A program made the position numbers and the translations under genes. Under the pieces are notes generated by a model. It ran no database searches, had not been told where the DNA came from, and was given only the letters and a program-made list of their open reading frames with translations. Shown in pieces: positions 37,584-49,746 of a stretch of 64,000 bases of DNA; the stretch's first letter is position 1, and each line of letters opens with the position of its first letter. The DNA lies in IMG/VR virus record IMGVR_UViG_3300045988_045464, positions 1 to 64,000 of that record; one strand, 5' to 3'. This DNA comes from a virus.

Positions 37584-37820
37584 ATGAGAGGTAAAGACAT
37601 AATAGTAACATTCAATGAGCCTTGGTATAATGACTATAACAAACGATTATACACTCAATTATCCGAACAAATGATTAGAGAAGAGATTGAGAGAGTGCAT
37701 AAAGAACCAATCATTACTAATACTGCATTTGATATGGCAGTAGACAAGGCTTTCTTAGAGTTACTGCATGACAACAAGGATTTAATTAATATTACAGAAC
37801 GATACAAGAACCATGAGTAA
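37584..37820 (+). CDS. hypothetical protein
   Basis: 78-aa ORF. Confidence 0.45.
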   Translation: MRGKDIIVTFNEPWYNDYNKRLYTQLSEQMIREEIERVHKEPIITNTAFDMAVDKAFLELLHDNKDLINITERYKNHE

Positions 37821-38460
37821 AATAGCAACAGAATTAGAAGCTAGGACTATAGGGGGGGGGACTCTCTCGGTAATTGATAACAAGTGCTGTACTAAAGCCA
37901 GGGCACTTGAATTAGGATGTCAGATTAAAAGTGGATTTAGTTATACCGATAATCAGTTAGTGGAGTTAGAAGGTATAAAGGCAGCTATAACTGCTCCAAA
38001 TGTAATCCTTCATTATGGTTGGGAGGATATGCCAATTAATAATATACAGCAATTTAGAGTACGTTTCTCATTTGTTAATCAGAGTTCAGTAGATGGAGAA
38101 CCATTTAAGTATTCTGATAATACTACTTACTTTACAATTACTCCAAGATTAGAGCAAGGAGAACAAACGTACACTAAGACTTTAGCAAACCCTCTTAAAT
38201 ATTACTTAGAGAAACTAGCACTTCCTAACCAAGACCCATATAATACACCTGTTTGGATACGTTTTGAGGGATACATGATGCTTAGGCAAGTGTCTAAAAT
38301 TACATTAGCAGTAGATTCTCAATCTGAGAATTGGGCAGAAGGAGTAACATTCCCTTCATCTGGAAGGTGGGTCAAAATGAATAATTCTGGTAGAGTATTT
38401 AGATTTACTGGTGGGGAAATAGACCTAAACATAGAACTGTATACAGCGTCAGCGCAATGA
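37813..38460 (+). CDS. hypothetical protein of the MSKI(A/V)TE...GGG paralogue family, with an in-frame G9 tract
   Basis: Starts MSKIATELEARTIGGGT; the codons for GGG are a 9-G homopolymer at 37852..37860. Confidence 0.55.
   Translation: MSKIATELEARTIGGGTLSVIDNKCCTKARALELGCQIKSGFSYTDNQLVELEGIKAAITAPNVILHYGWEDMPINNIQQFRVRFSFVNQSSVDGEPFKYSDNTTYFTITPRLEQGEQTYTKTLANPLKYYLEKLALPNQDPYNTPVWIRFEGYMMLRQVSKITLAVDSQSENWAEGVTFPSSGRWVKMNNSGRVFRFTGGEIDLNIELYTASAQ
37852..37860 (+). repeat. homopolymeric G9 tract (coding GGG, in frame)
   Basis: Nine consecutive G in >65% AT sequence. Confidence 0.9.
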
Positions 38461-38654
38461 TTAAAGTAACTGATAATAAAGAAATAAAAGAGACAGTCTT
38501 AGCAGGACTTAAAAGGAATAAAGAGAAATATGGTAAGAAGTACTGCCCATGTTCCTTAGTAAGAGATGAAGATACAGTATGTATGTGTAAAGAGTTTAGG
38601 GAAATGGAAGAAGGAACTTGCCATTGCCAACTTTATGTTAAAACTAAAGACTAA
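38457..38654 (+). CDS. Cys-rich small protein (CPCS...CMC...CHC)
   Basis: 65-aa ORF, likely zinc-binding. Confidence 0.45.
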   Translation: MIKVTDNKEIKETVLAGLKRNKEKYGKKYCPCSLVRDEDTVCMCKEFREMEEGTCHCQLYVKTKD

Positions 38655-38820
38655 TAATTATGGATGAATTAAAGAACCAATTAGCACAGTATTTATGTAG
38701 CCAAATTCATAATGGCACTAAGGATTTGATTGAATTAATTGAATCAGAAGACCTTATTAATGAACAGTGGTATAAGAACTGGAAGGAAGAGATGAGAATC
38801 TTACTACAGGAGAAGTAATT

Positions 38821-39060
38821 ATGATAATACTTAGTGGGAACTGTCCTAGGCATCATAATGCCATTATGTTGGAACTTACAGACTTTGATGATAGTAAAAT
38901 TTCCTATCTAGCTAGAATATCTAGAGGACATCATGTTGATACTCTGTTAGTTCCTAGGGAATATAAAGATACATTTGAATCTACAGAACTATATAAAGTA
39001 TTACTGCCTAATATTAGTATAGGCGGTGTGCAATTTGCTAAAATATACTATTATGATTGA
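38821..39060 (+). CDS. hypothetical protein
   Basis: 79-aa ORF. Confidence 0.4.
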   Translation: MIILSGNCPRHHNAIMLELTDFDDSKISYLARISRGHHVDTLLVPREYKDTFESTELYKVLLPNISIGGVQFAKIYYYD

Positions 39061-39283
39061 TGTTAGAAGGACATTAGAGAATTTACATCAGATACTTCCA
39101 AACTTATCAATAGAGGACTTATTTAGAGTTCTTGATAACATAGTAGAGATTCCACAATTTAACGTAGGACAGACAACTACTATACGTAGAGATGATAGTG
39201 GCTGGAGACCATATGACACAGGTACATTTATATCTTATGCTAGTAATGGAATAACACTTAGTGATGAAGGAACTTGTAAATAA
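39026..39283 (+). CDS. hypothetical protein
   Basis: 85-aa ORF. Confidence 0.4.
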   Translation: MCNLLKYTIMIDVRRTLENLHQILPNLSIEDLFRVLDNIVEIPQFNVGQTTTIRRDDSGWRPYDTGTFISYASNGITLSDEGTCK

Positions 39284-39470
39284 TTGGAATGAGAAGCATC
39301 CCGAATACGTATTGGTACACGGGATGTATTCTTATGTAGACAACGGTCAGTCTAAGGATATGCACATGCTTACTATCTTTAATAAGGATAATGAATGTAT
39401 ATGTGAATATAAAGGAGAAGATTTTATTAAGTTGTATAATACATTAGAAGAAGAATGGGAAGATGCTTAA
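39261..39470 (+). CDS. hypothetical protein
   Basis: 69-aa ORF. Confidence 0.4.
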   Translation: MMKELVNNWNEKHPEYVLVHGMYSYVDNGQSKDMHMLTIFNKDNECICEYKGEDFIKLYNTLEEEWEDA

Positions 39471-39494
39471 TGTTAATATAATAGTAAGTGAATT

Positions 39495-39776
39495 ATGGAG
39501 AATAAATTAAACGTACCAAAGCTGGAATATAAAACAGGAGAGCCTATGTGGGTTCATTGGGATAATAGATACGTATTGCGTGGAGGACATATACTAGGAA
39601 AATGCCCAGATGAGAATTTGATAACCACAGTGGGCTACTTGGCATATATGGACGACAAATCAATAATATTGGGAAGAGGTATTGAGAATCATTGTGATGA
39701 GGACGGTACTCGCAGAGTAAAAGATACAATACACATACCAATGAGCTTAGTAGCTAGTTTTGGAAGTTTTGATTGA
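39495..39776 (+). CDS. hypothetical protein
   Basis: 93-aa ORF. Confidence 0.45.
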   Translation: MENKLNVPKLEYKTGEPMWVHWDNRYVLRGGHILGKCPDENLITTVGYLAYMDDKSIILGRGIENHCDEDGTRRVKDTIHIPMSLVASFGSFD

Positions 39777-39782
39777 TGAACT

Positions 39783-40637
39783 ATGATAAATGAGGAGTAT
39801 AATAAATGGCTAATCCTTTACTTTGATATGCAATCTATAAATTTACAGTTCAATTGTAATGATATAGCATCATCACTAAAGGCACAAAGAGATAAGATAA
39901 AACAATTCTGTATTGACTGTCTAACAGGGGTAAAACATCAGGCTGACAGCTTTCTATTTGACACTAATGCTCATATATTCTCTACTCCTAAAACTAGAGG
40001 ACTGTTGTTCTCATATGAAGAATATCCCATTCTTGATACTGATACTACTAAAGTAGTTGACGGAAAGTATCCCTTAGACTATGCTACTGAAATAATAGAA
40101 TCTAATTTGGATGATATCATTGACTATATAGTACAATCGGGAACAGAAACATACAATGATAGAACCAGTAGAGGATTTGGGAATAGGTGGAGTCCTTATA
40201 ATGAGGAGGAACGTAAACAAGTAATTAAACTGTTTAACTCTGGAACTTGGTATGATACACTTGGGTCCTTAAAGCATTTATATTATGAAAGAACCCCCAA
40301 AGGCTTAAGAATGTGTAACCTGACTGGCGAACCCTTACAAGCCAATGTTCTAGAACATATAGAAGATATTATTTTGAACATAAAAGACCATTATGAAACA
40401 TTTGCCGTTGTTCCTAGAGGTAAATCTAAATTACAAGTTTATATGACAATTAGCAATGGAACAAATGGAGCTGAAGGATGTATCATTAATCCCATGGAAG
40501 ATGTGCTGAATGTACTTAAGGACTTACGGAAATACAAAGGAGTAACTTGGTCACAGCTACTGGAAGTTGGGATAGATAATGCAGATGATTTATATTGGTG
40601 GTACGTGACATTCTCTATAGACACTACAGCTATATAA
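39783..40637 (+). CDS. hypothetical protein (284 aa)
   Basis: Long ORF at the end of the rightward block. Confidence 0.55.
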   Translation: MINEEYNKWLILYFDMQSINLQFNCNDIASSLKAQRDKIKQFCIDCLTGVKHQADSFLFDTNAHIFSTPKTRGLLFSYEEYPILDTDTTKVVDGKYPLDYATEIIESNLDDIIDYIVQSGTETYNDRTSRGFGNRWSPYNEEERKQVIKLFNSGTWYDTLGSLKHLYYERTPKGLRMCNLTGEPLQANVLEHIEDIILNIKDHYETFAVVPRGKSKLQVYMTISNGTNGAEGCIINPMEDVLNVLKDLRKYKGVTWSQLLEVGIDNADDLYWWYVTFSIDTTAI

Positions 40638-40819
40638 TAAATTGATACCAGCCAGTAGATGCTAGGCACAAAGCCTAAGATAGTTTTTACATCTTCGTCT
40701 TGGTGGTCTACGCCAGTGCGCTCTGACGTATTCTCACTTACCGAGACGGAATCTTATTATAAACAACAAAGCCCGAACTTAGTTTAATTACTAGGCTCGG
40801 GCTTTATTATATCAACCTG

Positions 40820-41907
40820 TTATGTATTAATTTTAATTACTTGTCTAGAATAGTCAGGCAAGTCAAGTATTTTATTACTTTGGTCAAATGTAGAAGCTGT
40901 ATTCTGCAATAGGAGTCTTTTAGTTCCATTCGAACCAATTGCATACCAATTTGAATCTACATATATTAAATCAGTAAGAGTATATTCACCTAGTGTAGAT
41001 GTAGTCCAATTATTACCCCTATCTGTAGACACACTCTTCATATTATTTCCTATAAGCATAAATGTATTAGTCCCAGCTTCATTTGCATACAAACCTTTAG
41101 TCAAAGCAGTTAGTTGTGGTCTAGTGGTTGCAGCAGTCCATTGAGTTCCAGTTGGGTTAGTACTAACGTATGTATAATTACTTGTAGTGCTATATACTAC
41201 ACTTCTTGGCGAAGAATGAAACCCTTGTATTACTGCACTTGGTGTAAACATTCCTGGAGTATAATAAGTAAGAGAATCCGGTAAAGATGTAGCTATGAAG
41301 GTATATATTCTAGCTCCTCCCTGATACGATGCCCCAACACAGCAGTAATCATAAGGCCCAGTTGATATGCTACGGACTGGACCTACAACACTACGCTCCT
41401 TTACTGTACCGTCATCATACACTATAATAACATAGTTCTTACCGTCTCCTCCTGCTCCTTTATAAAATACCCAGCCAGTAGAGAATCTAGCCAAGTGAGC
41501 ATAACCATAAGCTTTTACAGTATCTTTGTATTTTAATTCCCACTGTTTGGTAGACTGATTAACTACATACAATCCTCCAAGCATAGACAATGCTCCAATT
41601 GCTTCACCTCCTCCAGCTATGTATATAAAATCCTCATGGCCGTCTATAGCTGGAATTTGAGCATAGGTACCACCGCCAGCAAAGTATAAACTACCTGTCT
41701 CCGCATTAATAAGGAATAAGTCTTTATTTACAACTATATCTTCTTCTTTAACTAACTGGTTAGACCTATAATTATTAGGTTGTTTAACTACCTGTCCCCA
41801 TAAGGACAATAGTAAGTCATAATAGGGACAATACCCCCCCCCTTCCCATAATCTATTGACATTCCAGTCAATTCATTCAATTTGTCTTCTGTTACTATTT
41901 TACTCAT
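40820..41907 (-). CDS. tail-fibre-like protein (Thr/Ser/Gly/Tyr-rich); N-terminal leader out of frame at a G9 tract
   Basis: The 329-aa ORF (40820..41809) has no ATG. An ATG at 41907 encodes MSKIVTEDKLNELTGMSIDYGKGGG and then meets the 9-G tract (+ strand 41834..41842). Ten G would fuse it in frame to the 329-aa ORF. The NQLVKEEDI motif is shared with 46933..47400. Confidence 0.5.
41834..41842 (-). repeat. homopolymeric G9 tract on the coding strand (out of frame; +1 G restores the full-length fibre)
   Basis: Nine C on the + strand, 22 codons after the ATG at 41907. Confidence 0.85.
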
Positions 41908-42033
41908 TATTATATTTAGATTTGATGTTAATCATACAAGACTAATACATCATGTTAAGATTAATTATCTACTTGCTATATTAATAATAATCTGTATATT
42001 TGTGATATGTTTAACCATTAAATTTATAAGATT

Positions 42034-42375
42034 ATGCCATTAGTAACAATTCCACTCCGATTATTTGGTAAATCACTTAAAGAGTATAATTTCTCTGTAT
42101 TTACATTACCTGCTACTTTTAAACCGGTAGAGGAGTTTGGTATGCTTTATGTTTACTTCTATAAGGATGAAACTACTACTAGATTAATTTATTGTGGTAA
42201 AGATACCAATATTCCTCAAAGGCTAGAAGACCACGAACGTGATGACAGAGATATTATAGAAGCATCAAATTACATAGGCGTTATATACTATGCTGATTAT
42301 GAGCAACTCAAAGCTGATGAAGTTGATATATTAGAAGGCAACAACTTCGAGAAGAACATTCAGCATAATTGTTGA
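42034..42375 (+). CDS. small GIY-YIG-like protein, tentative
   Basis: LYVYFYKDETTTRLIYCGKDTN...RLEDHER resembles the GIY...YIG...R...H core. It sits antisense within the structural module. Confidence 0.35.
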   Translation: MPLVTIPLRLFGKSLKEYNFSVFTLPATFKPVEEFGMLYVYFYKDETTTRLIYCGKDTNIPQRLEDHERDDRDIIEASNYIGVIYYADYEQLKADEVDILEGNNFEKNIQHNC

Positions 42376-42584
42376 ATTATTTCCATTGGGACAGAATGGA
42401 TAGGATGCCAGTTCATCCCTCCTTCTGTTCTCATAAAGACATAATTATCTTCTTTATTGTACACCATTATAGTACTGTTGTTACTTTTAAATAGTGCTGT
42501 AACTTTTACTTGCCCGTCTTCTTTAGTCATTACTCCACATTCTAAAACGGGATGTTCCTGCACTTTAGTCCATTTATTATCCAT
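42360..42584 (-). CDS. hypothetical protein
   Basis: 74-aa ORF. Confidence 0.35.
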   Translation of the reverse strand: MDNKWTKVQEHPVLECGVMTKEDGQVKVTALFKSNNSTIMVYNKEDNYVFMRTEGGMNWHPIHSVPMEIIQQLC

Positions 42585-42665
42585 ATTAATTCATTTAATT
42601 ATTATCAGTTGTATATCTATATGTAAAGTTATTGATTATTAGCCAATTAAACTAATGCAAGAATG

Positions 42666-42854
42666 TTAAGTATTGTTACTTGGTGGTATATAATCATCTG
42701 GTACATCATGCGGTTCACGTGGGTCTTCAAACCAAACTCTATCTACTTTGTCCAGTTCTGCACATACTTCCTCTGCTGTCATTTCTCCTGCATTGAATTT
42801 GGCAAATAAGTCTCTGGTAAATTCACTGTACTCTCTATTACTCATTTCTATCAT
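42666..42854 (-). CDS. hypothetical protein
   Basis: 62-aa ORF overlapping the stop of the large tail gene. Confidence 0.35.
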   Translation of the reverse strand: MIEMSNREYSEFTRDLFAKFNAGEMTAEEVCAELDKVDRVWFEDPREPHDVPDDYIPPSNNT

Positions 42855-45800
42855 AATTCATTCCTCCTATTAATGCTGTACCTACTGCTGTAGGATATAT
42901 AAAATATCTACCTGTCAATGCATTCCATACTCTCTTAGGATGTTTCATATTTAAGTACTTAGTTATAAATGCATGTTCATTACCAGATTCAGAGAACTCC
43001 TTAAGCATCTGCTCTAAAGCTTGTCTGCCTGGATATTCTTGTCCTGGTTGTAATCCTAACCTCTTACCTAGTTCCATTGTATTAGCGGCTGCTTCTCCTC
43101 CCTCAAACAAGTATTTATAAGTTTCTAAGTCCGGAGCTTCATTCTCTGGAATTAATAACTTCCTAGTTTTAAAGTCGTAAAAATCAGTAGTATTAGCCTT
43201 ACGTTTAACATGTTCAAACAAATTACCTCTTATTGGCATCCTGTCCTTATCAGCCATTCCATAATATCCTCTATGCAAGGTTTCATGGTATGCAGTTGGA
43301 TGTAAGTTATAATGCTTATTATATTGTAACATGTCATTTGAAGGATTAGGGTCTAAATACACTCTACCAGCAAACTCCCCATTAGGATAAGTAATCGTTT
43401 CATAATCTGGCGTTACTTTAACTCTAGCCCTCTCTGCGCCATTTGGGTATGGTGTAAAATGTTCATATCCTAATCTCTGCGCTAGTCTCTTATTATACAA
43501 ATCAGTCTCCTTCTTAACATCCGATTCCAAGAAATCTATAGCTTCCTTAGTTCCCTTATCTACATCACTATATATCTTATCCATATTCCAACTTCTATCT
43601 GGATTAAGATTAACCTCTAAATTCTTAGCGGGATATTTATTAGAGGCTAGCGTATTAGCTCCTTTCTTAGACACTCTACCATTCTTCAAGTCATCTCTAA
43701 GACTAAAGATTACTTGATTATTAGAATATCCATTATCATATACATTATTAAAGACTACTCCATCTGCATTCATCTTATCTGCTGCCCGCTCTAATGCTGC
43801 TCTGTTAGGTACATCACCTACAGTAACTATTGGCCTCTCCAACTCTAAGTCTCCTTCTACTCTGTAAGGTCTCTTGGCAAATCTCTCTCTAGCCGCAGCT
43901 GCCTTCTCTGCCTTACCTGGTATAGAGTGATTAGCTGCTGTTCTAGGATTGCCTAACTTACCTTGATACCATATACCAGCTTCAGGAGCACCTTCATGAA
44001 TAGCATCCCACCTTTCTGGGCTGTATAATGTTAACTTAGTAGGAGCATCAGTATCGTGTACTACATGTATGGATTGCCTAGGTCCCCAACCTACGTTGTT
44101 AGGTAGCATATTATTAGGAGTAGCTAAATGCTTAGATTGCCTTTTAAACTCCTTACCAACTGCACGTTTAGCCATTTGCTTACCTGCATATCTACCTGCC
44201 ATAGATGCACCTTTACTAAGTAAACTACCTAATCCTGTTGCTAGTGTAGCATAGTCTGTAAAGGTAAGGATTCCATTTAAATTATGCAAACCTTCTTCAT
44301 ACTTCTTTGCTTGCATATAATCATCATATCCTTTACTAGCTGCTTCATGTGCTTGTTGATGCTGCCAAGGACTTTTAGCATCAGAGGTTACTGTAGGCTG
44401 TTCGGATTGCCCATATATGTTTATCATGGACTGAATATGTTCAGCTGGAGTAGCCTTTCTAATTCTATTCGGAATATTAGGTCTGTAGTCTCTAATTGCA
44501 TCTCTTCTAGCTATACCATGTGGTGGATTTTGATATTTAATAATCATACCATTCTCACCTTTAGGAATACCATTATATACTCCAGTAAGTACTTTAGCAT
44601 AATTAGTAGCTTCTGCATATCTTCTCTTACCTTTATTAGAACCAGTAAGCTTAGCTACAAACTTATTAATATCATCATTCTCATCAAAGTCATATAGTCT
44701 CTTTAAGAATTGTACCTTATCTGCTGCATACTCATCCATAGAATTATAAGACCTAAACTTCTGCTTAATAGCTTCACCTTTAGCATTCTTATCATTACCA
44801 GTTACATAATCACCTTTCCATGAACTACCAGTAGTTAAATTGCCAAAGTTGTACTTACCTTGTGCAGACTTACCCCAACTAGATTCTAATGCGTCTTGTG
44901 CTAATAGCATTCTAATTGCATTATCATTAGTAATACCTGCCTTCTTATAGGCATTAATAAGTTCTGTAGACCATTGCTTTCTGTTAGTGTATGGACTCTT
45001 CCAAGTTGAGTTGGCAGTAACAGGTTTATTGGTAACAGGTTTACTAGCTACTGGCTTATTAATTACTGGCTCTACTGTAGGATTATTAGCTACTACATCA
45101 GTTTCATTAGCATCTCTTACTGGAACTACTAATGCTTCTGGTTTATCGTAAGTTGTGTTGTAATTATACTCACTAAATGGATTAATAGGATTAGTAATAT
45201 CAGTGTAATCTATTGTAGGATTACTTACTGGATTATAACTAACAAATCTCATTCCTTGTTGAGCTTTCTTGATTCGCTTCTTATAGGTTGGGCGACTTGA
45301 TTTGATGAACTTCTTACGCATGTCCCTTTTACCGTTAATCTCTTCTTGTTTCTTTAACAGAGGGGACTTCTTAAAATCAAATCTTCCACCATGTGCCATA
45401 GTTACTAATTCTGGATTTCTAACAGACTTACCTTCAATCCATATAGGATTAGATTGCTGTAGTATAAACGGACGACCTACTTTATCCATTAATGCAGCTT
45501 GTTTAGTAAGCCTAACTTGGTTAGCAGTATTAGGAGAATCATTCCACCTCTTAGCATAGTCAGCAGGATTAAATTTCCACATATCTTGAGAAGTCTGTCT
45601 TAATTTACCTTTGCTCATTTGAAACTTAACCAAGTGTCCAGCGACATCATCAATAGGACCTATATAATCAGTTCCTGGCTTCCTAAAGGTCATGAACTCT
45701 TTATCTCCCATACGCATTACTGGTTGGCTAATAGGTTTGATATTACTAGTAGCTTTATTAAAGAACATTCTTTTAACTACTGGATTCTCATCAAATATAT

Positions 45801-45942
45801 ATTTAGCTAATAGATTCCTACCTTCTAAATTTCCTCCACCTAGTATTGAAGAACCTGTGTAGTCGGCTGGCATTGTTTTTATATCTTGCAAACTTACTGA
45901 TGCATTACCGTTAGTTCTCTTGGCAGCTTTATAAGCAGCCAC
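42838..45942 (-). CDS. large tail-associated protein with a peptidoglycan hydrolase (glucosaminidase-like) domain and a C-terminal HExxH motif
   Basis: MLLAQDALESSWGKSAQGKYNFGNL...FRSYNSMDEYAADKVQFL matches the FlgJ-type glucosaminidase signature. A PVxNKPV linker repeat follows, then YHETLHRGYY (HExxH). Confidence 0.65.
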   Translation of the reverse strand: MAAYKAAKRTNGNASVSLQDIKTMPADYTGSSILGGGNLEGRNLLAKYIFDENPVVKRMFFNKATSNIKPISQPVMRMGDKEFMTFRKPGTDYIGPIDDVAGHLVKFQMSKGKLRQTSQDMWKFNPADYAKRWNDSPNTANQVRLTKQAALMDKVGRPFILQQSNPIWIEGKSVRNPELVTMAHGGRFDFKKSPLLKKQEEINGKRDMRKKFIKSSRPTYKKRIKKAQQGMRFVSYNPVSNPTIDYTDITNPINPFSEYNYNTTYDKPEALVVPVRDANETDVVANNPTVEPVINKPVASKPVTNKPVTANSTWKSPYTNRKQWSTELINAYKKAGITNDNAIRMLLAQDALESSWGKSAQGKYNFGNLTTGSSWKGDYVTGNDKNAKGEAIKQKFRSYNSMDEYAADKVQFLKRLYDFDENDDINKFVAKLTGSNKGKRRYAEATNYAKVLTGVYNGIPKGENGMIIKYQNPPHGIARRDAIRDYRPNIPNRIRKATPAEHIQSMINIYGQSEQPTVTSDAKSPWQHQQAHEAASKGYDDYMQAKKYEEGLHNLNGILTFTDYATLATGLGSLLSKGASMAGRYAGKQMAKRAVGKEFKRQSKHLATPNNMLPNNVGWGPRQSIHVVHDTDAPTKLTLYSPERWDAIHEGAPEAGIWYQGKLGNPRTAANHSIPGKAEKAAAARERFAKRPYRVEGDLELERPIVTVGDVPNRAALERAADKMNADGVVFNNVYDNGYSNNQVIFSLRDDLKNGRVSKKGANTLASNKYPAKNLEVNLNPDRSWNMDKIYSDVDKGTKEAIDFLESDVKKETDLYNKRLAQRLGYEHFTPYPNGAERARVKVTPDYETITYPNGEFAGRVYLDPNPSNDMLQYNKHYNLHPTAYHETLHRGYYGMADKDRMPIRGNLFEHVKRKANTTDFYDFKTRKLLIPENEAPDLETYKYLFEGGEAAANTMELGKRLGLQPGQEYPGRQALEQMLKEFSESGNEHAFITKYLNMKHPKRVWNALTGRYFIYPTAVGTALIGGMNYDRNE

Positions 45943-45945
45943 TTT

Positions 45946-46617
45946 TTATGGTAATTTCTCTACCTTAGATAGAAATGGAGTAATTCTGTTAGCTGTTGCC
46001 ATTGCTATATTAGAAGGAGTCCTTGCTTCCTTATTAAATATCCAATGATTCTTGTTAATAGGATTCCAAGCTAAGTCAGCGTCACCTTTAATTGATTTAG
46101 TTATTAACTTGTCCTTTCCAATCTTATATCCTTTAGCACCACCATACCAAGCTCCTGGATTAGTATAAACTCCAATTTCGGACGGAATGCCAGTTTTATC
46201 TTCCAACCAGTTACCCCAGCCCCCGGTAAGCTTATCCACAGTCATATTACCTAAAGCTCCTACTACAACAGCGGCTGGAGTTGTTACTAATGCAGCACCA
46301 GCTGCTGAAGGAAGTATAGTTCTTTCTATTCCAGCACCAGCTGCTGAAGGAAGTATAGTTCTTTCTATTCCAACTAAAGGATTAGTCTCATTGGACATAG
46401 AAGCCCTGAATCTGGCTTTAGCTCCTTTAATAGGATGCCAATAGTCTCTATTTCTTTCAGCAGCTGACCTGGTATCATTAGAAGGTTCTCCACCTAAATC
46501 TACAATGGAATACTGTCTAGGTTTAGCTTTAATAGGTTCATGAATTTCTGGCCTAACTACTTTAGTATTATCGGACTCTATGGTGTTTCCTTGTTGTAGT
46601 TTAGGTATTACTTTCAT
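45946..46617 (-). CDS. hypothetical structural protein containing a 13-aa duplication
   Basis: 223-aa ORF; GIERTILPSAAGA is encoded twice by a perfect 39-bp tandem repeat. Confidence 0.5.
   Translation of the reverse strand: MKVIPKLQQGNTIESDNTKVVRPEIHEPIKAKPRQYSIVDLGGEPSNDTRSAAERNRDYWHPIKGAKARFRASMSNETNPLVGIERTILPSAAGAGIERTILPSAAGAALVTTPAAVVVGALGNMTVDKLTGGWGNWLEDKTGIPSEIGVYTNPGAWYGGAKGYKIGKDKLITKSIKGDADLAWNPINKNHWIFNKEARTPSNIAMATANRITPFLSKVEKLP
46293..46370. repeat. perfect 2 x 39-bp tandem duplication inside the CDS
   Basis: cagcaccagctgctgaaggaagtatagttctttctattc occurs twice back-to-back. Confidence 0.9.
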
Positions 46618-46859
46618 TATTTATTCGATTTATCGTTATTGGTGAATCTCTTCCATATTCCTGTTACTGAATCTATGCCAAGCAATCCCATACAACACAA
46701 CAGGACTGTGTCTATCATTAATGGGGCTTGAATTACGTTTATTGCACAGTATATTAACACTCCCAAGCAGACAAACCACCCTACTACTCCGCAGAGTCTC
46801 TTAGATGATATGCCAGAGTGGGATGTGAATACTTGCTTTAAGAATGTTACAAACTTCAT
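46617..46859 (-). CDS. small two-transmembrane protein (holin-like topology)
   Basis: 80-aa ORF with two hydrophobic helices and a charged C-terminus. Confidence 0.4.
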   Translation of the reverse strand: MKFVTFLKQVFTSHSGISSKRLCGVVGWFVCLGVLIYCAINVIQAPLMIDTVLLCCMGLLGIDSVTGIWKRFTNNDKSNK

Positions 46860-46932
46860 TATATAATTACATTTATAGAAATATTAGCTGTGTCACCTCC
46901 TATATATGCCTGATTTATTGGTATTTCAGTAG

Positions 46933-47400
46933 TTACCCAGATTGGCATACTGCGTTATTTGTTACACTATCTGCATCTACAGTCACCCTGTATGTACTGA
47001 AATATCCAGTGAACAATAATTTAGAGACATTAGTTAAATCAGTTGGTAAATTAAAGTGGAAGTTTCTGTCAAAGAAAGTTGCCCCTTGATAGTCTAGAGT
47101 TCCAGACCTAGGAATTGTTATAAACCCATCTGGAACTCCATCTATGTAAACATCTGCTACAAAGTCATAGGATTTAGACGTAAGCCCAGAGTTAGTTATT
47201 GAAACATGTATATTGAAGTCATACTGGAATGTTGACAACTGTATATCCTCTTCCTTAACTAACTGATTATTAGCGTAATTATCGTTAGTTTCAAGTCCGA
47301 AGAACTCTACTCTATCTCTAGTGGCACACTTGGTTGGAGTATTTGTACCTCCACCAGCTAAATTAATTAAATATTGTTCTGTTGCAATTTTATTTGTCAT
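46933..47400 (-). CDS. fibre/receptor-binding-like protein, paralogous N-terminus
   Basis: MTNKIATEQYLINLAGGGTNTPTKCATRDR parallels the 37813 N-terminus. NNQLVKEEDI is shared with the 40820 fibre. Confidence 0.5.
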   Translation of the reverse strand: MTNKIATEQYLINLAGGGTNTPTKCATRDRVEFFGLETNDNYANNQLVKEEDIQLSTFQYDFNIHVSITNSGLTSKSYDFVADVYIDGVPDGFITIPRSGTLDYQGATFFDRNFHFNLPTDLTNVSKLLFTGYFSTYRVTVDADSVTNNAVCQSG

Positions 47401-47412
47401 TTTAAATACTTG

Positions 47413-47907
47413 CTATGTATTGTTTATACACATAACGGCAAGTAGACCCTGTACTGGCATATTCTGATTAGTTCCTATAACAAGTCTATCTGTTTCATAA
47501 TTAGAATAGCAATTCATATTCTTTACATTATTTAATAGGAATGCTACGTAAGTATTACTTCCAATCACACTATTGCCAAACAAAGCTACATTTCTTATAA
47601 CACCTGCTATAGGGTATACCACCATGGATGAAGCAGGAATATCTGGTGTAGCCGATGTGCTTTGACCATACATACTTGTGATTGATATACCCATTGTAGT
47701 GTCTGTAGTAGTGTTATTAAAGAATATTAGGGTGCTGCCGCTTAGTGAACCGTTTAATAAATCTATAGCGTCAGCAATACCCCCCCCCGACGGTAGGTTA
47801 TCATTGAACTGTTGCTTAGTAATGCATCTATTGTTCGCAACTCCGTCTAAGCTCAAGCCTTCTGCTCTGGCTTCAGCTGCTGTTACTAATTCATTAGTGC
47901 TTTCCAT
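47413..47907 (-). CDS. structural protein of the same paralogue family, with an in-frame G9 tract
   Basis: ...NNRCITKQQFNDNLPSGGGIADA; the GGG is encoded by nine G (+ strand C-run 47780..47788). Confidence 0.5.
   Translation of the reverse strand: MESTNELVTAAEARAEGLSLDGVANNRCITKQQFNDNLPSGGGIADAIDLLNGSLSGSTLIFFNNTTTDTTMGISITSMYGQSTSATPDIPASSMVVYPIAGVIRNVALFGNSVIGSNTYVAFLLNNVKNMNCYSNYETDRLVIGTNQNMPVQGLLAVMCINNT
47780..47788 (-). repeat. homopolymeric G9 tract on the coding strand (in frame)
   Basis: Nine C on the + strand inside 47413..47907. Confidence 0.9.
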
Positions 47908-48110
47908 TATTCTTGATATTCTCTTAAATTACCAATTGTTACTTCAAATTCATCTGATTTCATGTAGGGTGATACATCTGCATCTTTAGCAGCTTCGTTC
48001 AAACAGAACATGTCTGAAGGAAACGATAGTGCCTTTACCCTTATTTGCTTAAGTAGTCTGGAGTGTTTGGCTTTAGACCAAACCCAGACGTCAAATATAA
48101 AATTTCTCAT
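47907..48110 (-). CDS. hypothetical protein
   Basis: 67-aa ORF. Confidence 0.35.
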   Translation of the reverse strand: MRNFIFDVWVWSKAKHSRLLKQIRVKALSFPSDMFCLNEAAKDADVSPYMKSDEFEVTIGNLREYQE

Positions 48111-48141
48111 ACTGCGATTAATGTACTTTAATTCTTAAATG

Positions 48142-48531
48142 TTAAGAATTACTAAGTGTAGAAGCAATCCACTTTTGATTGGAGCCTTTGTTAAGGCTAA
48201 AGTGCTGTAAACCACCTTGACTTACATTTACGTATAATGTGAACAAATTAGCTAGTGGAATTCCGACTATTGTCACACTAATACATGTTGGCGTACCATT
48301 AGATACTCCATAATACAGTAACTGAAATGGGACCATGTCTGTCATATTAGACTTCACAATCTCCATTACAGCACTATCAGCACTGTTAACCTCTATATTA
48401 CTACTTCTACCTGGATAAATCAAATCTTGTGTTGTTAAAACTAGGGTCTGAACCCCCCCATAGACTTGAGTGCATCATTCACTTGTTTAGTGGTAGGGCA
48501 TTTGTTGTCTTCATTTTGAATTAAAGCCATG
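48142..48531 (-). CDS. structural paralogue split by a G7 tract (ATG at 48531; 93-aa body 48142..48423 without ATG)
   Basis: MALIQNEDNKCPTTKQVNDALKSMGG then the 7-G tract, then a TAG in the current frame. Eight G would give an in-frame fusion to the 93-aa ORF (…VQTLVLTTQDLIYPGRSS…). Confidence 0.45.
48453..48459 (-). repeat. homopolymeric G7 tract on the coding strand (out of frame)
   Basis: Seven C on the + strand between the leader ATG and the 93-aa ORF. Confidence 0.85.
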
Positions 48532-48538
48532 ATTGTTA

Positions 48539-49378
48539 TTATTTAATAATTCTACGTTTAATTTGCACACCTCTCTTAGCTATTAGCATAGTATTACTTC
48601 TTTTGTTGTTAGCATTACTAGCGAAGGTATTATGCAGTTTAGCTATCTCGTCATCACTAAGGGTATTAAACCCTGAAGGTATTTTAGCTCCCTTAGTTCT
48701 CATCTCCTGAATATCTGTACCTTTTAATTGCCTATTAGGGTCAATATAATAATTACCATTCGCATCTTTCATATTTACATTGGCTCCTCTAAATCCCCAC
48801 GTGTCCGCATGTCTTTCATTAGGTTGGGAGCTGTACACTTGAGACTCTAATGGTGTAGAGGATTCATAATCCACTCTGTTATTAATACCAGGATTGGCCT
48901 TTAATATCTGCGGATTATTATCTCCAACCATGTGTCCAATACCTTCATGCCAAGACACATCGCTAAATCTTCCAGAGAATGGGAATGAAGGAGCATTGTA
49001 TGTGTATTGCAATCCTGCTGGATATGCTGCTCCCTTATTTTGTCTCATAGCTACTTGGGCAGCTTGAGTCACATTACCAACCTTCCCTTTATATACATTT
49101 GGATTAGAATAGAACTTAGAAGGTTCTACATATTCTGCCCTGTTAATTTGGTCAGTAATGTTAGCAAGGTTAGATTCATTAACTTGAGATTGATACTTAG
49201 GCTGTTTAGCACGTTCTTTATACCATTCTATAGCAAAGTCTTTCATCCCTCTAGTTTGGGCTTGATATCTCTGGTCCTCTGGCAATTTATAATTCTCTTT
49301 AGGATTAGGTCTTGCTACAGCTCCCTGTTGTGCCCTAATAATCCCTCTTCCTTTAGTTGAGATTCTCATAATATCCAT
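48539..49378 (-). CDS. hypothetical structural protein (279 aa)
   Basis: Long ORF with no recognisable motif. Confidence 0.5.
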   Translation of the reverse strand: MDIMRISTKGRGIIRAQQGAVARPNPKENYKLPEDQRYQAQTRGMKDFAIEWYKERAKQPKYQSQVNESNLANITDQINRAEYVEPSKFYSNPNVYKGKVGNVTQAAQVAMRQNKGAAYPAGLQYTYNAPSFPFSGRFSDVSWHEGIGHMVGDNNPQILKANPGINNRVDYESSTPLESQVYSSQPNERHADTWGFRGANVNMKDANGNYYIDPNRQLKGTDIQEMRTKGAKIPSGFNTLSDDEIAKLHNTFASNANNKRSNTMLIAKRGVQIKRRIIK

Positions 49379-49746
49379 TTAAGCCAACCGTAGCTGAAAG
49401 TCTTCCTCTTATATTCTGGATGTTCAGCCGCGTATCTAGCTTCTCTTTCAAATGATATGTTTCTATAGGCAGTGTGAGCATTGCCACTAGCTAGTAATTT
49501 AATAAACCACTCTATTACATACCATAAATAGAAGAATACTATTCCCATTTCTAATATCTGTTTCGTGTGAGTCTTCTCATGTGTAACTGTAGCTTGACTC
49601 ATTCTCTTTATATAATCCTCACTTCTAGTAAACATAATAGCACAAATATTCATAAATGAATATCCTTTTACCGGAAGTAACGGATTGATAAAGAATAGCA
49701 ATCCTTTAGATTTGTCGTACTTAAATTTCATAGTTAATGCTTCCAT
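49366..49746 (-). CDS. small putative zinc metallopeptidase (HExxH)
   Basis: VTHEKTHTKQ contains an HExxH motif, followed by EMG/FEREA; 126 aa. Confidence 0.4.
   Translation of the reverse strand: MEALTMKFKYDKSKGLLFFINPLLPVKGYSFMNICAIMFTRSEDYIKRMSQATVTHEKTHTKQILEMGIVFFYLWYVIEWFIKLLASGNAHTAYRNISFEREARYAAEHPEYKRKTFSYGWLKWIL

What the first reader, a model, noticed from the sequence alone, without database searches (positions are those of the whole stretch)
37813..48531. Homopolymeric G9/G7 tracts at the Gly-Gly-Gly position of four paralogous structural genes: two in frame, two out of frame
In a genome that is mostly >65% AT there are four long G runs on the coding strand, each 14-41 codons after the start of a gene whose N-terminus belongs to one family (MSKIATELEARTIGGGT; MSKIVTEDKLNELTGMSIDYGKGGG; ...NNRCITKQQFNDNLPSGGGIADA; MALIQ...KSMGG). 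The tracts at 37852-37860 and 47780-47788 keep the frame. The tract at 41834-41842 (nine G) leaves the 329-aa tail-fibre body (which has no ATG) one base out of phase with its ATG leader, and ten G would fuse them. The tract at 48453-48459 (seven G) does the same for the 93-aa ORF, and eight G would fuse it. This is the pattern expected of slipped-strand phase variation switching fibre/receptor-binding variants on and off. I am not aware of it being described for a phage of this type. It could also reflect homopolymer sequencing error.
Basis: seen in the sequence. Interest (0 to 1): 0.85.

Follow-up and report, generated by a model that had tools for sequence, protein, structure and literature searches.

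The report
Poly-G on/off switches in gut phage
A large crAss-related phage of the human gut carries four runs of 7-9 G near the starts of related genes, and their length differs between otherwise identical genomes, switching each gene in or out of frame; this kind of switch was known in phages mainly from Campylobacter phages.

Summary
The window holds four G/C runs of 7 or more bases (G9, G9, G9, G7). Each lies 13-40 codons into one of four genes that share an N-terminal module. Two genes are in frame. The other two are restored by adding one G. The rest of the 64 kb has no homopolymer longer than 6.

Comparison with 67 related contigs from gut metagenomes argues against an assembly slip in this window. 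The same four sites carry G6-G11, with 60 instances in frame and 98 out of frame. Lengths differ even between genomes whose flanks are identical for 300 nt on each side, whereas 5-6-nt control runs almost never vary. The downstream reading frames stay intact and are under purifying selection in three of the four genes. A fifth paralog encodes the same Gly-Gly-Gly as GGT-GGA-GGT.

The best explanation is slipped-strand contingency loci that give combinatorial ON/OFF expression of modular proteins. These proteins are probably on the virion surface or bind receptors. That role is inferred from a beta-propeller and a beta-sandwich body behind a conserved N-terminal module, and it is not proven. 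The mechanism matches Fletchervirus (Campylobacter phage) poly-G tracts. The lineage (distant crAss-like, Bacteroides-linked) and the proteins are unrelated to them. I class it as a new member of a known kind. Read-level heterogeneity remains untested.

The parts
37813..38460 (+). Gene A, 215 aa, in frame (ON) in this window. It has an N-terminal module (about residues 1-58) followed by a beta-sandwich body.
   Evidence: ORF and translation. Model: pLDDT 80 overall and about 93 for residues 61-215, with no significant PDB fold match. Orthologs: 13 ON and 22 OFF. dN/dS 0.28.
37852..37860 (+). Poly-G tract 1 (G9), codons 14-16 of gene A.
   Evidence: Orthologous site has G6-G10.
40820..41907 (-). 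Gene B, OFF in this window. The 39-codon leader (41907-41788) is out of phase with the 337-codon body (41833-40820). G10 or G7 gives 362 or 361 aa. The body is a beta-propeller.
   Evidence: The ON ortholog P0002 modelled with pLDDT 72, and generic beta-propeller matches have E about 1e-7. Orthologs: 8 ON and 21 OFF. dN/dS 0.36.
41834..41842 (-). Poly-G tract 2 (G9 on the coding strand), codons 23-25 of gene B.
   Evidence: Orthologous site has G6-G10 with occasional interruptions.
46933..47400 (-). Paralog C, 155 aa. It has the same N-terminal module and Gly-Gly-Gly motif, but the motif is encoded GGT GGA GGT (47347-47355), so there is no slippery tract. It is presumably expressed constitutively.
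   Evidence: 50 of 61 orthologs keep GCTGGTGGAGGTACA and none has a homopolymer.
47413..47907 (-). Gene D, 164 aa, in frame (ON) in this window.
   Evidence: Orthologs: 25 ON and 25 OFF. dN/dS is about 1.1 at low dS.
47780..47788 (-). Poly-G tract 3 (G9), codons 40-42 of gene D.
   Evidence: Orthologous site has G6-G11.
48142..48530 (-). Gene E, OFF in this window. The 29-codon leader (48530-48441) is out of phase with the body (48452-48142). G8 or G11 gives 129 or 130 aa.
   Evidence: The 97.6%-identical record MT835470 has G9 here. Orthologs: 14 ON and 30 OFF. dN/dS 0.46.
48453..48459 (-). Poly-G tract 4 (G7), codons 24-26 of gene E.
   Evidence: Orthologous site has G6-G11.
37813..37833 (+). 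Left arm of a 21-nt inverted repeat (ATGAGTAAAATAGCAACAGAA), made of the first 7 codons of gene A.
   Evidence: It coincides with the inversion breakpoint seen among relatives.
41887..41907 (-). Right arm of the inverted repeat (ATGAGTAAAATAGTAACAGAA), made of the first 7 codons of gene B. The 4.1-kb A-to-B segment between the arms occurs in both orientations among related genomes.

Best explanation
The four poly-G runs are hypermutable contingency loci. During replication of the phage DNA the G run (modal length G9) gains or loses a base by slipped-strand mispairing. Each tract sits 13-40 codons into its gene, so each length change moves the long C-terminal body in or out of frame with the ATG-bearing leader. 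This gives heritable and reversible ON/OFF expression.

The four switched genes (A, B, D, E) and one unswitched paralog (C) share a conserved N-terminal module of about 55 residues. Their C-terminal bodies are unrelated (a beta-propeller in B, a beta-sandwich in A). This is the architecture expected of interchangeable virion-surface or receptor-binding proteins that dock by a common N-terminus. Four independent switches allow up to 16 progeny types in one burst, which is a bet-hedging device against a host with a variable surface. The host is probably a Bacteroides or a related Bacteroidota.

Shown here:
- the tracts and their frames;
- the length polymorphism at orthologous sites;
- the intact and constrained bodies;
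- the non-slippery coding of the same motif in paralog C.

Inferred, not shown:
- slippage as the mutational mechanism;
- switching within a single population;
- a virion or receptor-binding role;
- the identity of the host.
For: Statistics:
- Only four G/C runs of 7 or more exist in 64 kb, against 1.16 matches expected.
- The genome is otherwise purged of homopolymers. A/T runs of 7 or more number 0 against 28.7 expected. Length-5 runs number 25 against 157, and length-6 runs 5 against 47.
- GGG makes up only 8% of Gly codons.

Comparative evidence:
- MT835470 is 97.6% identical and has G9 where the window has G7.
- In 160 related loci from IMG/VR and metagenomes the four orthologous sites carry G6-G11: 9, 14, 38, 68, 27 and 2 instances respectively. 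60 are ON and 98 OFF.
- 16 genomes that carry all four sites show 8 different ON/OFF combinations.
- Tract length varies among genomes with identical 60-nt flanks. It also varies in 7 of 14 groups with identical 300-nt flanks.
- Only 3 of 379 orthologous 5-6-nt control runs differ in length.
- Three contigs end exactly at a tract.

Evidence that the genes are maintained:
- Bodies remain open in nearly all of the OFF alleles. dN/dS is 0.28 (A), 0.36 (B) and 0.46 (E), and pairs of OFF alleles give the same values.
- Paralog C keeps GGT-GGA-GGT in 50 of 61 orthologs.
- Protein clusters of full-length A (1636 and 1150 members) and of N-terminally truncated gene calls (1253, 1337 and 526 members) are both large.

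Modularity:
- The N-terminal module is nearly invariant while bodies drop to 38-48% identity.
- Natural chimeras exist: A leader with B body, and B leader with A body.

Precedent:
- Fletchervirus G7-G11 tracts in receptor-binding proteins, as summarised in 10.1101/2025.10.21.683753 and PMC11959909.
Against: - No reads were available, so mixed tract lengths within one population and the switching rate are not shown.
- The in-frame fraction (38%) does not differ from the 1/3 expected if tract length were random with respect to frame (p = 0.24). Consensus states therefore give no sign of selection for ON, except in gene D (50%, p = 0.016).
- Gene D has dN/dS of about 1.1.
- No sequence or fold evidence ties any of the five proteins to a known tail fibre or receptor-binding protein.
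- Gene A sits among small plus-strand ORFs, not in the recognisable head/packaging module at 55.9-64 kb.
- The tracts are the only long homopolymers in the genome, so a platform-specific G-run error would show up only here.
Confidence: 0.75

Rival explanations
1. The tract lengths are sequencing or assembly artefacts. The true genomes all carry in-frame tracts, and Illumina or assembler errors at G9-G10 runs create apparent frameshifts.
For: The tracts are the only homopolymers longer than 6 in the genome, so homopolymer-dependent error would be confined to them. Many contigs have low coverage (names). Three contigs break at tracts, which could reflect poor read quality there.
Against: 62% of 158 consensus calls from independent assemblies are out of frame, and lengths span 6 to 11. 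Consensus error at a 9-mer is not expected to reach that level (general knowledge of Illumina consensus accuracy, not tested here). Control runs of 5-6 nt vary in 3 of 379 cases. Full-length and truncated gene calls each represent thousands of member sequences. An always-in-frame gene has no need for the rarest Gly codon three times in a row at four sites, while paralog C avoids it.
Confidence: 0.07
2. The out-of-frame genes are decaying pseudogenes. These are dispensable accessory genes that are being lost, and the G runs are simply mutational hotspots with no switching function.
For: Three of 16 genomes have all four genes OFF. B is deleted in seven relatives, leaving an 8-codon stub. D has dN/dS of about 1.1. 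The in-frame fraction is close to 1/3.
Against: Bodies of OFF alleles are intact with dN/dS of 0.24-0.46 in OFF-OFF comparisons. Nearly all OFF alleles are one or two bases away from ON. The tract itself is conserved at four sites across the clade, with only occasional interruptions. This is so in a genome that eliminates every other homopolymer. Genomes with identical flanks show both ON and OFF lengths, which indicates back-and-forth change.
Confidence: 0.06
3. The tract is mainly a recoding site. RNA-polymerase slippage or ribosomal frameshifting on the G run yields both short and full-length products from any genotype, so DNA length matters little.
For: Long homopolymers are known sites of transcriptional slippage (general knowledge). 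Near-random frame states would be tolerable if every genotype gave some full-length product. In D and E a second-frame ATG just upstream of the tract gives a near-full-length ORF in a second length class.
Against: The frame shift needed differs in sign and size between genomes (fix values of +1 or +2). No single programmed shift fits them all. No stimulatory structure was sought or seen. Slippage during transcription would add to a DNA-level switch and would not replace it. This could not be tested here.
Confidence: 0.07
4. The switches are real, but the proteins are not receptor-binding or virion proteins. They could be phase-variable anti-defence, superinfection-exclusion or host-manipulation factors.
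For: There is no homology to any structural protein. Gene A lies among small early-like ORFs and its start overlaps the stop of the upstream ORF. [quoted passage not shown]
Against: The conserved N-terminal module with swappable, fast-diverging C-terminal bodies is typical of fibre or receptor-binding proteins. Beta-propeller domains are also found among phage structural proteins. Genes B-E are clustered with a 1034-aa protein carrying a cell-wall glucosaminidase domain.
Confidence: 0.3

Closest known systems
Hypermutable poly-G tracts in receptor-binding protein genes of Campylobacter Fletchervirus phages (Sorensen et al. 2021, Cell Rep 35:109214; known here through citing papers)
   Same: Both have G7-G11 runs inside phage genes. 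Several tracts occur per genome, and length changes give ON/OFF frames and phenotypically mixed progeny. The tract length range here (G6-G11, mode G9) is essentially the same.
   Different: The phage lineage is unrelated (TerL is 28-30% identical to crAss-like phages, and GC is about 37%). The host is probably Bacteroidota, which is known for invertible-promoter phase variation, not poly-G (general knowledge). The proteins have no detectable homologs in deposited phage genomes. Here the switched genes form one paralogous family with a shared N-terminal module plus an unswitched paralog. Function and switching have not been shown experimentally.
Bacterial simple-sequence contingency loci (Campylobacter, Haemophilus, Neisseria poly-G/poly-C tracts)
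   Same: A homopolymer lies in the 5' part of an ORF. Slipped-strand indels cause frameshift ON/OFF. Several independent loci give combinatorial variation. Tracts occasionally carry stabilising interruptions.
   Different: These loci are in a virus genome and are presumably replicated by phage-directed machinery. The rest of the genome is strongly purged of homopolymers.
Contingency loci of coliphages T2/T4 (Gomez, Barrick & Waters 2025, bioRxiv 10.1101/2025.10.21.683753)
   Same: Polymerase slippage at short repeats in phage genes creates reversible frameshift variants in progeny, which the authors interpret as bet-hedging.
   Different: The repeats surveyed there are short (6 bp or longer) and are scattered over all gene classes. 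[quoted passage not shown] Here four long G runs are concentrated in one gene family and everything else is depleted.
Invertible tail-fibre segments of phages Mu (G segment) and P1 (C segment)
   Same: They are an alternative way for a phage to alternate between host-range proteins. The A-to-B segment here is flanked by a 21-nt inverted repeat and is found in both orientations among relatives.
   Different: In Mu and P1 a dedicated invertase swaps C-terminal fibre parts behind a constant N-terminus. Here whole genes with their own leaders change place, and no recombinase gene was identified. Inversion within a population is not shown.
Diversity-generating retroelements targeting tail-fibre genes in crAss-like (Zeta, Epsilon) phages and Bordetella phage BPP-1
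   Same: Both are targeted diversification of presumed receptor-binding proteins in gut Bacteroidota phages (PMC12386605 and PMC11054128).
   Different: DGRs rewrite codons in a C-type lectin fold through a reverse transcriptase. The system here only toggles expression and needs no dedicated enzyme.

Membership tests
Simple-sequence-repeat contingency locus (slipped-strand phase variation) | A mononucleotide tract of about 7 or more bases inside the 5' part of an ORF, or in its promoter | tested here: met
   G9, G9, G9 and G7 lie at codons 14, 23, 40 and 24 of genes A, B, D and E.
Simple-sequence-repeat contingency locus (slipped-strand phase variation) | Tract length is polymorphic among closely related genomes, and the changes shift the reading frame | tested here: met
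   G6-G11 in 158 instances, 60 ON and 98 OFF. Length varies between genomes with identical 60-300-nt flanks. Control runs are stable, with 3 of 379 varying.
Simple-sequence-repeat contingency locus (slipped-strand phase variation) | The switched ORF is kept functional (intact and under purifying selection) despite frequent OFF states | tested here: met
   dN/dS is 0.28 (A), 0.36 (B) and 0.46 (E), also in OFF-OFF pairs. D is inconclusive (about 1.1 at dS 0.04).
Simple-sequence-repeat contingency locus (slipped-strand phase variation) | High-frequency, reversible switching within a clonal population | not testable with these tools
   No reads or cultures were available. The only indirect signs are contigs ending at tracts and identical-flank polymorphism.
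Simple-sequence-repeat contingency locus (slipped-strand phase variation) | The ON/OFF state changes a phenotype | not testable with these tools
   This needs an isolate, locked mutants, and adsorption or host-range assays.
Fletchervirus-type poly-G receptor-binding proteins | The tract-bearing genes encode receptor-binding or tail-fibre proteins | tested here: inconclusive
   No Pfam, PHROG or PDB sequence match. B is a generic beta-propeller. A is a beta-sandwich with no significant match. The modular N-terminal and C-terminal architecture and the chimeras are suggestive only.
Fletchervirus-type poly-G receptor-binding proteins | Sequence homology to the Campylobacter phage proteins or lineage | tested here: not met
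   tblastn of B against 50,697 phage records gave no match. The only DNA match of the region is the uncultured gut record MT835470. TerL relatives are crAss-like and Flavobacterium phages. The resemblance is an analogy and does not indicate common descent.
Crassvirales / crAss-like phages (possibly the Zeta group) | Terminase and portal related to crAss-like phages; genome of about 155-190 kb; Bacteroidota host | tested here: inconclusive
   TerL is 28-30% identical to many crAss-like genomes, with E about 1e-38. Related contigs cluster at 175-186 kb, within the range tabulated for Zeta phages. There is no Shine-Dalgarno sequence upstream of the genes. A Bacteroides sp. f07 chromosome carries a 97.6%-identical fragment. 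Hallmarks such as the virion RNA polymerase and the capsid protein were not examined.
Programmed DNA inversion switch (Mu G / P1 C type) | Inverted repeats flank the segment and both orientations are observed | tested here: met
   The 21-nt inverted repeat lies at 37813-37833 and 41887-41907. 10 relatives have the window's orientation and 5 have the inverted one, with breakpoints at the ATGs.
Programmed DNA inversion switch (Mu G / P1 C type) | A site-specific recombinase is associated, and both orientations occur within one population | tested here: inconclusive
   No recombinase domain was found in the 284-aa ORF inside the segment, and the small ORFs were not searched. Population data are unavailable. 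Ordinary recombination between the repeats over evolutionary time is an equally good explanation.

The most novel reading that the evidence does not exclude
A widespread clade of large crAss-related Bacteroides phages runs a layered, enzyme-free system of host-range variation.
- Four independent poly-G switches act on a family of interchangeable virion-surface proteins that dock through one N-terminal module.
- A constitutive paralog serves as the default.
- Recombination or inversion between the paralogs' identical first seven codons reshuffles genes and modules.
- The whole genome has been purged of every other homopolymer. This implies a slippage-prone replication system that the phage exploits at exactly four places.

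If so, this would be the phage-side counterpart of capsule phase variation in Bacteroides. It could help explain the stable long-term coexistence of crAss-like phages with their hosts.
Probability: 0.3. Interest if true: 0.8.

Novelty: new member of a known kind. Interest (0 to 1): 0.62.

Why it matters
Phase variation by hypermutable repeats is a classic bacterial strategy. In phages it has one well-studied example, Fletchervirus, which a 2025 review still calls 'an exceptional case', plus a recent report for T2/T4.

This case would extend it to a common, uncultured lineage of human-gut phages related to crAssphage. Their hosts are known for phase-variable surfaces (general knowledge). That would make a concrete hypothesis testable: gut phages hedge their bets on receptor usage, and this contributes to long-term phage-host coexistence.

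There are practical consequences as well. Automated annotation will call these genes truncated or frameshifted, so tract length should be treated as a variable state in virome analyses. Phage isolates used as therapy or as markers would be phenotypically mixed.

Tried and rejected
Searches that returned nothing useful:
- Pfam and PHROG scans of A-E and their neighbours gave nothing for the five family members.
- PDB sequence searches of A and C gave only chance-level hits.
- tblastn of B against deposited phages gave no match.
- The fold search of A against the PDB found nothing significant.
- Fold searches of B returned only generic beta-propellers. The fold supports a ligand-binding domain and nothing more specific.
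- An exhaustive profile search found only 46 representative relatives of B in 1.84 billion proteins, mostly fragments. The family is clade-restricted.
- tblastn of A-E against 58 more distant relatives' syntenic regions found no homologs.

Ideas considered and set aside:
- A three-state switch through second-frame ATGs just upstream of the tracts. The ATG is conserved in D and E. In B it is only sporadic: just 4 of 29 B orthologs are in the alternative-start state, and TAT/TAC varies at that codon. The product would also lack the conserved N-terminal module, so I do not rely on this idea.
- TAG/TGA recoding, as in some crAss-like phages. The window's long ORFs read well in the standard code. 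In B the out-of-frame leader meets a TAA about 60 nt after its TAG stop, so TAG recoding would not restore that gene (read from the sequence). E was not checked.

Literature:
- Searches for poly-G or homopolymer variation in crAss-like or Bacteroides phages found nothing relevant.
- One search was wasted because 'crass' matched Neurospora crassa and similar names.
- The Sorensen 2021 paper itself is not held, so its content is cited through other papers.

Full report
**Observation**

The window contains four G/C homopolymers of 7 or more bases: 37852-37860 (G9, + strand), 41834-41842 (G9, - strand), 47780-47788 (G9, - strand) and 48453-48459 (G7, - strand). A 7-G pattern matches 10 times against 1.16 expected from dinucleotide-preserving shuffles. 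G/C runs of 9 or more number 3 against 0.06 expected under a first-order Markov model. The rest of the 64 kb has no homopolymer longer than 6. AAAAAAA/TTTTTTT occurs 0 times against 28.7 ± 6.7 expected.

Translation confirms the frames.
- Gene A (37813-38460, +, 215 aa) and gene D (47413-47907, -, 164 aa) read through their tracts.
- In gene B the leader starts at 41907 and stops after 39 codons (TAG at 41790-41788). With G10 it fuses to the body, giving 362 aa ending at 40820.
- In gene E the leader starts at 48530 and stops after 29 codons (TAG at 48443-48441). With G8 it gives 129 aa.

First, the tract does not sit at one homologous position. In A and B it precedes an N-K-C-x-T-K motif, and in D and E it follows that motif by about 13 residues. 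Second, there is a fifth paralog, C (46933-47400, -). It has the same N-terminal module and a Gly-Gly-Gly at the position seen in A, but it is encoded GGT-GGA-GGT.

**What the element belongs to**

The region has one close public relative, the unannotated human-gut record MT835470 (97.6% identity, with a TerL that is 100% identical). The terminase is 28-30% identical to many crAss-like phages and more distantly related to Flavobacterium phages. Terminase and portal match PHROG head/packaging families. Related contigs cluster at about 175-186 kb, the size range tabulated for 'Zeta' crAss-like phages (PMC12386605). I did not test membership of that group.

None of the five genes has a Shine-Dalgarno sequence upstream, as is usual for Bacteroidota (general knowledge). 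A chromosome contig of Bacteroides sp. f07 carries an 842-bp piece of the neighbouring 1034-aa gene at 97.6% identity. It also carries the B leader with a G7 tract, embedded among ordinary Bacteroides genes such as SusC-like and sigma/anti-sigma genes. The host is therefore probably Bacteroides or a close relative. This is an inference.

**Is the length variation real?**

I anchored on the 1034-aa neighbour F (42838-45942, -; glucosaminidase domain). This retrieved 80 loci from IMG/VR, 80 from metagenomes and 5 from GTDB genomes.

- In the close clade the four orthologous sites all carry poly-G. After removing identical copies there are 158 instances in 67 contigs. Lengths are G6 (9), G7 (14), G8 (38), G9 (68), G10 (27) and G11 (2).
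- 60 instances are in frame and 98 out of frame. By gene the ON/total counts are A 13/35, B 8/29, D 25/50 and E 14/44.
- Sixteen genomes with all four sites show 8 different ON/OFF combinations, and three of them are all-OFF.
- Genomes with identical 60-nt flanks on both sides carry up to five different lengths. With identical 300-nt flanks, 7 of 14 groups still differ.
- As a control, 379 orthologous instances of 5-6-nt homopolymers with identical 20-nt flanks showed only 3 length differences, all at one intergenic T5.
- Three contigs terminate exactly at a tract. This is expected if assembly graphs branch there.
- Occasional interrupted tracts such as GGGAGGGGGG occur.
- In the protein database, full-length A clusters (1636 and 1150 members) and clusters of N-terminally truncated gene calls (1253, 1337 and 526 members) are of similar size.

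A single assembly slip, or a low rate of homopolymer error on an always-in-frame gene, cannot produce this pattern. A G-run-specific technical artefact cannot be formally excluded without reads.

**Are the genes alive?**

In nearly all OFF alleles the long body frame is intact, and one or two bases would restore it. Pairwise dN/dS of the bodies is 0.28 (A), 0.36 (B) and 0.46 (E), with the same values for OFF-OFF pairs. D gives about 1.1 at very low divergence and is inconclusive.

The tract itself appears to be maintained. GGG is the rarest glycine codon (8%). Paralog C keeps GGT-GGA-GGT in 50 of 61 orthologs, and none of the 61 has a homopolymer. The clade is depleted about six-fold in 5-nt A/T runs and about ten-fold in 6-nt A/T runs, and it has none of 7 or more. 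The more distant relatives are not depleted: they have 2.1 A/T runs of 7 or more per 10 kb. A genome that removes homopolymers everywhere yet conserves four G9 runs at fixed sites is hard to explain except by selection for the runs.

The in-frame fraction (38%) does not differ from 1/3 (p = 0.24), except in D (50%, p = 0.016). G9 is the modal length at all four sites whatever frame it gives. Mutational dynamics therefore dominate the consensus state. At the modal length D is ON and B and E are OFF.

**What the proteins are**

No Pfam, PHROG or PDB-sequence match exists for A-E. B has no tblastn match in 50,697 phage records, and only 46 representatives in 1.84 billion proteins resemble it.

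An AlphaFold model of an ON ortholog of B (pLDDT 72) is a beta-propeller. Foldseek matches are generic: PorZ, Ycf48, fishelectin and kelch in the PDB, and BNR/kelch-like and some structural phage proteins in BFVD. Its sequence also has one Asp-box-like motif, S-T-D-R-G-N-N-W (read from the sequence). A has a confident beta-sandwich body (pLDDT about 93) without a significant structural match, and a low-confidence N-terminus.

Across homologs of A the first 55 or so residues are nearly invariant, while the body falls to 38-48% identity. Natural chimeras join the A leader to the B body and the B leader to the A body at the N-Q-L-V-(K/E)-E junction. A conserved N-terminal docking module with exchangeable, fast-evolving distal domains is the standard design of phage fibres and receptor-binding proteins (general knowledge). 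On that basis I consider a virion-surface or receptor-binding role the most likely one, at roughly even odds. It has not been demonstrated. Gene A lies among small early-like ORFs, not in an obvious structural module.

**Mechanism**

The best-supported model is slipped-strand mispairing at the G runs during phage DNA replication. Each tract lies 13-40 codons into its gene, so a change of one base toggles translation of the whole body. The four loci switch independently, so one burst can contain many expression types, with paralog C as a constant member. This matches bacterial contingency loci. It also matches the poly-G tracts (G7-G11) in receptor-binding proteins of Campylobacter Fletchervirus phages, which let a sub-population infect cells whose phase-variable receptor is off (Sorensen et al. 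2021, as summarised in 10.1101/2025.10.21.683753 and PMC11959909).

Transcriptional or ribosomal slippage on the run may add leaky expression. It cannot be the main point, because the shift needed differs between genomes.

**Comparison and novelty**

In mechanism this is the same kind of system as the Fletchervirus tracts. The lineage, the probable host phylum and the proteins are unrelated, so it is an analog and not a homolog.

Full-text searches found no report of poly-G or homopolymer phase variation in crAss-like or Bacteroides phages. Recent analyses of Epsilon and Zeta crAss-like phages discuss DGRs, recoding and polymerase switching, and text searches of the two papers for 'poly', 'homopolymer' and 'frameshift' found no mention of this. 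A 2025 review still calls Fletchervirus 'an exceptional case'. [quoted passage not shown] I therefore class the finding as a new member of a known kind. It is of good but not exceptional interest, mainly because the clade is common in human-gut data and makes phage-side bet-hedging against Bacteroides testable.

**Other observations**

The segment between the start codons of A and B is bounded by a 21-nt inverted repeat made of their first seven codons. Among relatives it occurs in both orientations, 10 against 5, with breakpoints at the ATGs. In three genomes B alone is inverted, and in seven it is deleted to an 8-codon stub. This may be ordinary recombination between paralogs or a second, inversion-based layer of variation. 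No recombinase was identified.

The window also encodes a short adenylosuccinate-synthetase-family protein that matches the PHROG family of PurZ-type enzymes.

Noticed in passing
whole window (1-64000); also L001-L031 against L032-L081: All homopolymers are strongly depleted genome-wide. A/T runs of length 5 number 25 against 157 expected, length 6 number 5 against 47, and length 7 or more number 0 against about 20-29. G/C runs of 5-6 are depleted too. The close clade shares this (0 A/T runs of 7 or more in 535 kb). More distant relatives do not (2.1 per 10 kb). The cause is unknown. It may reflect selection against slippage by a slippage-prone replication system.
   Followed up: partly
window 37813-41907 (inverted-repeat arms 37813-37833 and 41887-41907); L002 13590-18322 against L005: The 4.1-kb segment from the ATG of gene A to the ATG of gene B is flanked by a 21-nt inverted repeat made of their first seven codons. 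It is found in both orientations among related genomes (10 as in the window, 5 inverted). In L007, L027 and L082 only B is inverted. In seven loci B is deleted, leaving the stub MSKIVTQE. This is either recombination between paralogs or a programmed inversion. No recombinase was found.
   Followed up: partly
proteins P0067 and P0207 (homologs of window genes A and B): Natural reciprocal chimeras exist: the A N-terminal module fused to the B beta-propeller body, and the B leader fused to the A body. Both are joined at the conserved N-Q-L-V-(K/E)-E motif. This shows that the N-terminal module and the bodies are exchangeable units.
   Followed up: partly
window 10397-11464 (-): A short (355 aa) adenylosuccinate-synthetase-family ORF matches PHROG 1211, the PurZ-type enzyme family of phages that replace adenine by 2-aminoadenine (E = 1.6e-46). 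It also matches Pfam PF00709. This could mean a modified (Z-base) genome. Companion genes were not examined.
   Followed up: no
L162 10001-13760 (Bacteroides sp. f07, NZ_BAABXI010000002.1 about 826-830 kb): A Bacteroides chromosome carries a fragment of about 4 kb related to this phage. It holds 842 bp of the 1034-aa gene at 97.6% identity, inside a 660-aa ORF with a different C-terminus. It also holds the gene-B upstream region and leader with a G7 tract followed by unrelated sequence. The fragment is flanked by PBP-like, sigma/anti-sigma and SusC-like genes. This is a host link and possibly a remnant of past integration or gene transfer.
   Followed up: partly
L034, L036, L038, L041, L042, L043 at about 16-18 kb (- strand): A more distant clade has no A-E homologs in the regions fetched. 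It carries one G9-G12 run in an apparently non-coding stretch (…TTTTCACAGAA-Gn-ATTATATTTAAGTACC…), and its length varies between genomes. This may be a promoter or 5'-UTR tract.
   Followed up: no
window 48473-48478 (gene E) and about 47801-47806 (gene D), - strand: In D and E the conserved Asn-Asp codons (AATGAT) create an ATG in a second frame 15-18 nt upstream of the tract. As a result a second tract-length class (G9 for E; G7 or G10 for D) opens a near-full-length ORF of 112 or 129-130 aa that lacks the N-terminal module. This may be coincidental. The corresponding ATG in B is not conserved.
   Followed up: partly
L125 start, L127 start, L136 start: Three metagenome contigs begin exactly at the D or E poly-G tract. 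This is consistent with assembly-graph breaks caused by mixed tract lengths, or with poor reads at G runs.
   Followed up: partly
window 47413-47779 (gene D body): Unlike A, B and E, the body of D shows dN/dS of about 1.1 among orthologs, at low divergence (dS about 0.04). This could be relaxed or diversifying selection, or noise. D is also the gene most often in frame.
   Followed up: no
window 42838-45942 (-) and 49366-49746 (-): The 1034-aa protein next to the switched genes has a glucosaminidase (cell-wall hydrolase) domain at residues 332-457 and an H-E-x-x-H motif near its C-terminus (YHETLH). A nearby 126-aa ORF also has H-E-x-x-H (THEKTH). They look like virion-associated or injected lytic/protease proteins. 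The motifs were read by eye only.
   Followed up: no
window 37813-37820: The start codon of gene A overlaps the stop codon of the upstream 78-aa ORF (ATGAGTAA). This suggests translational coupling of A to a run of small plus-strand ORFs. Gene B, by contrast, has its own intergenic region of about 125 nt upstream.
   Followed up: no
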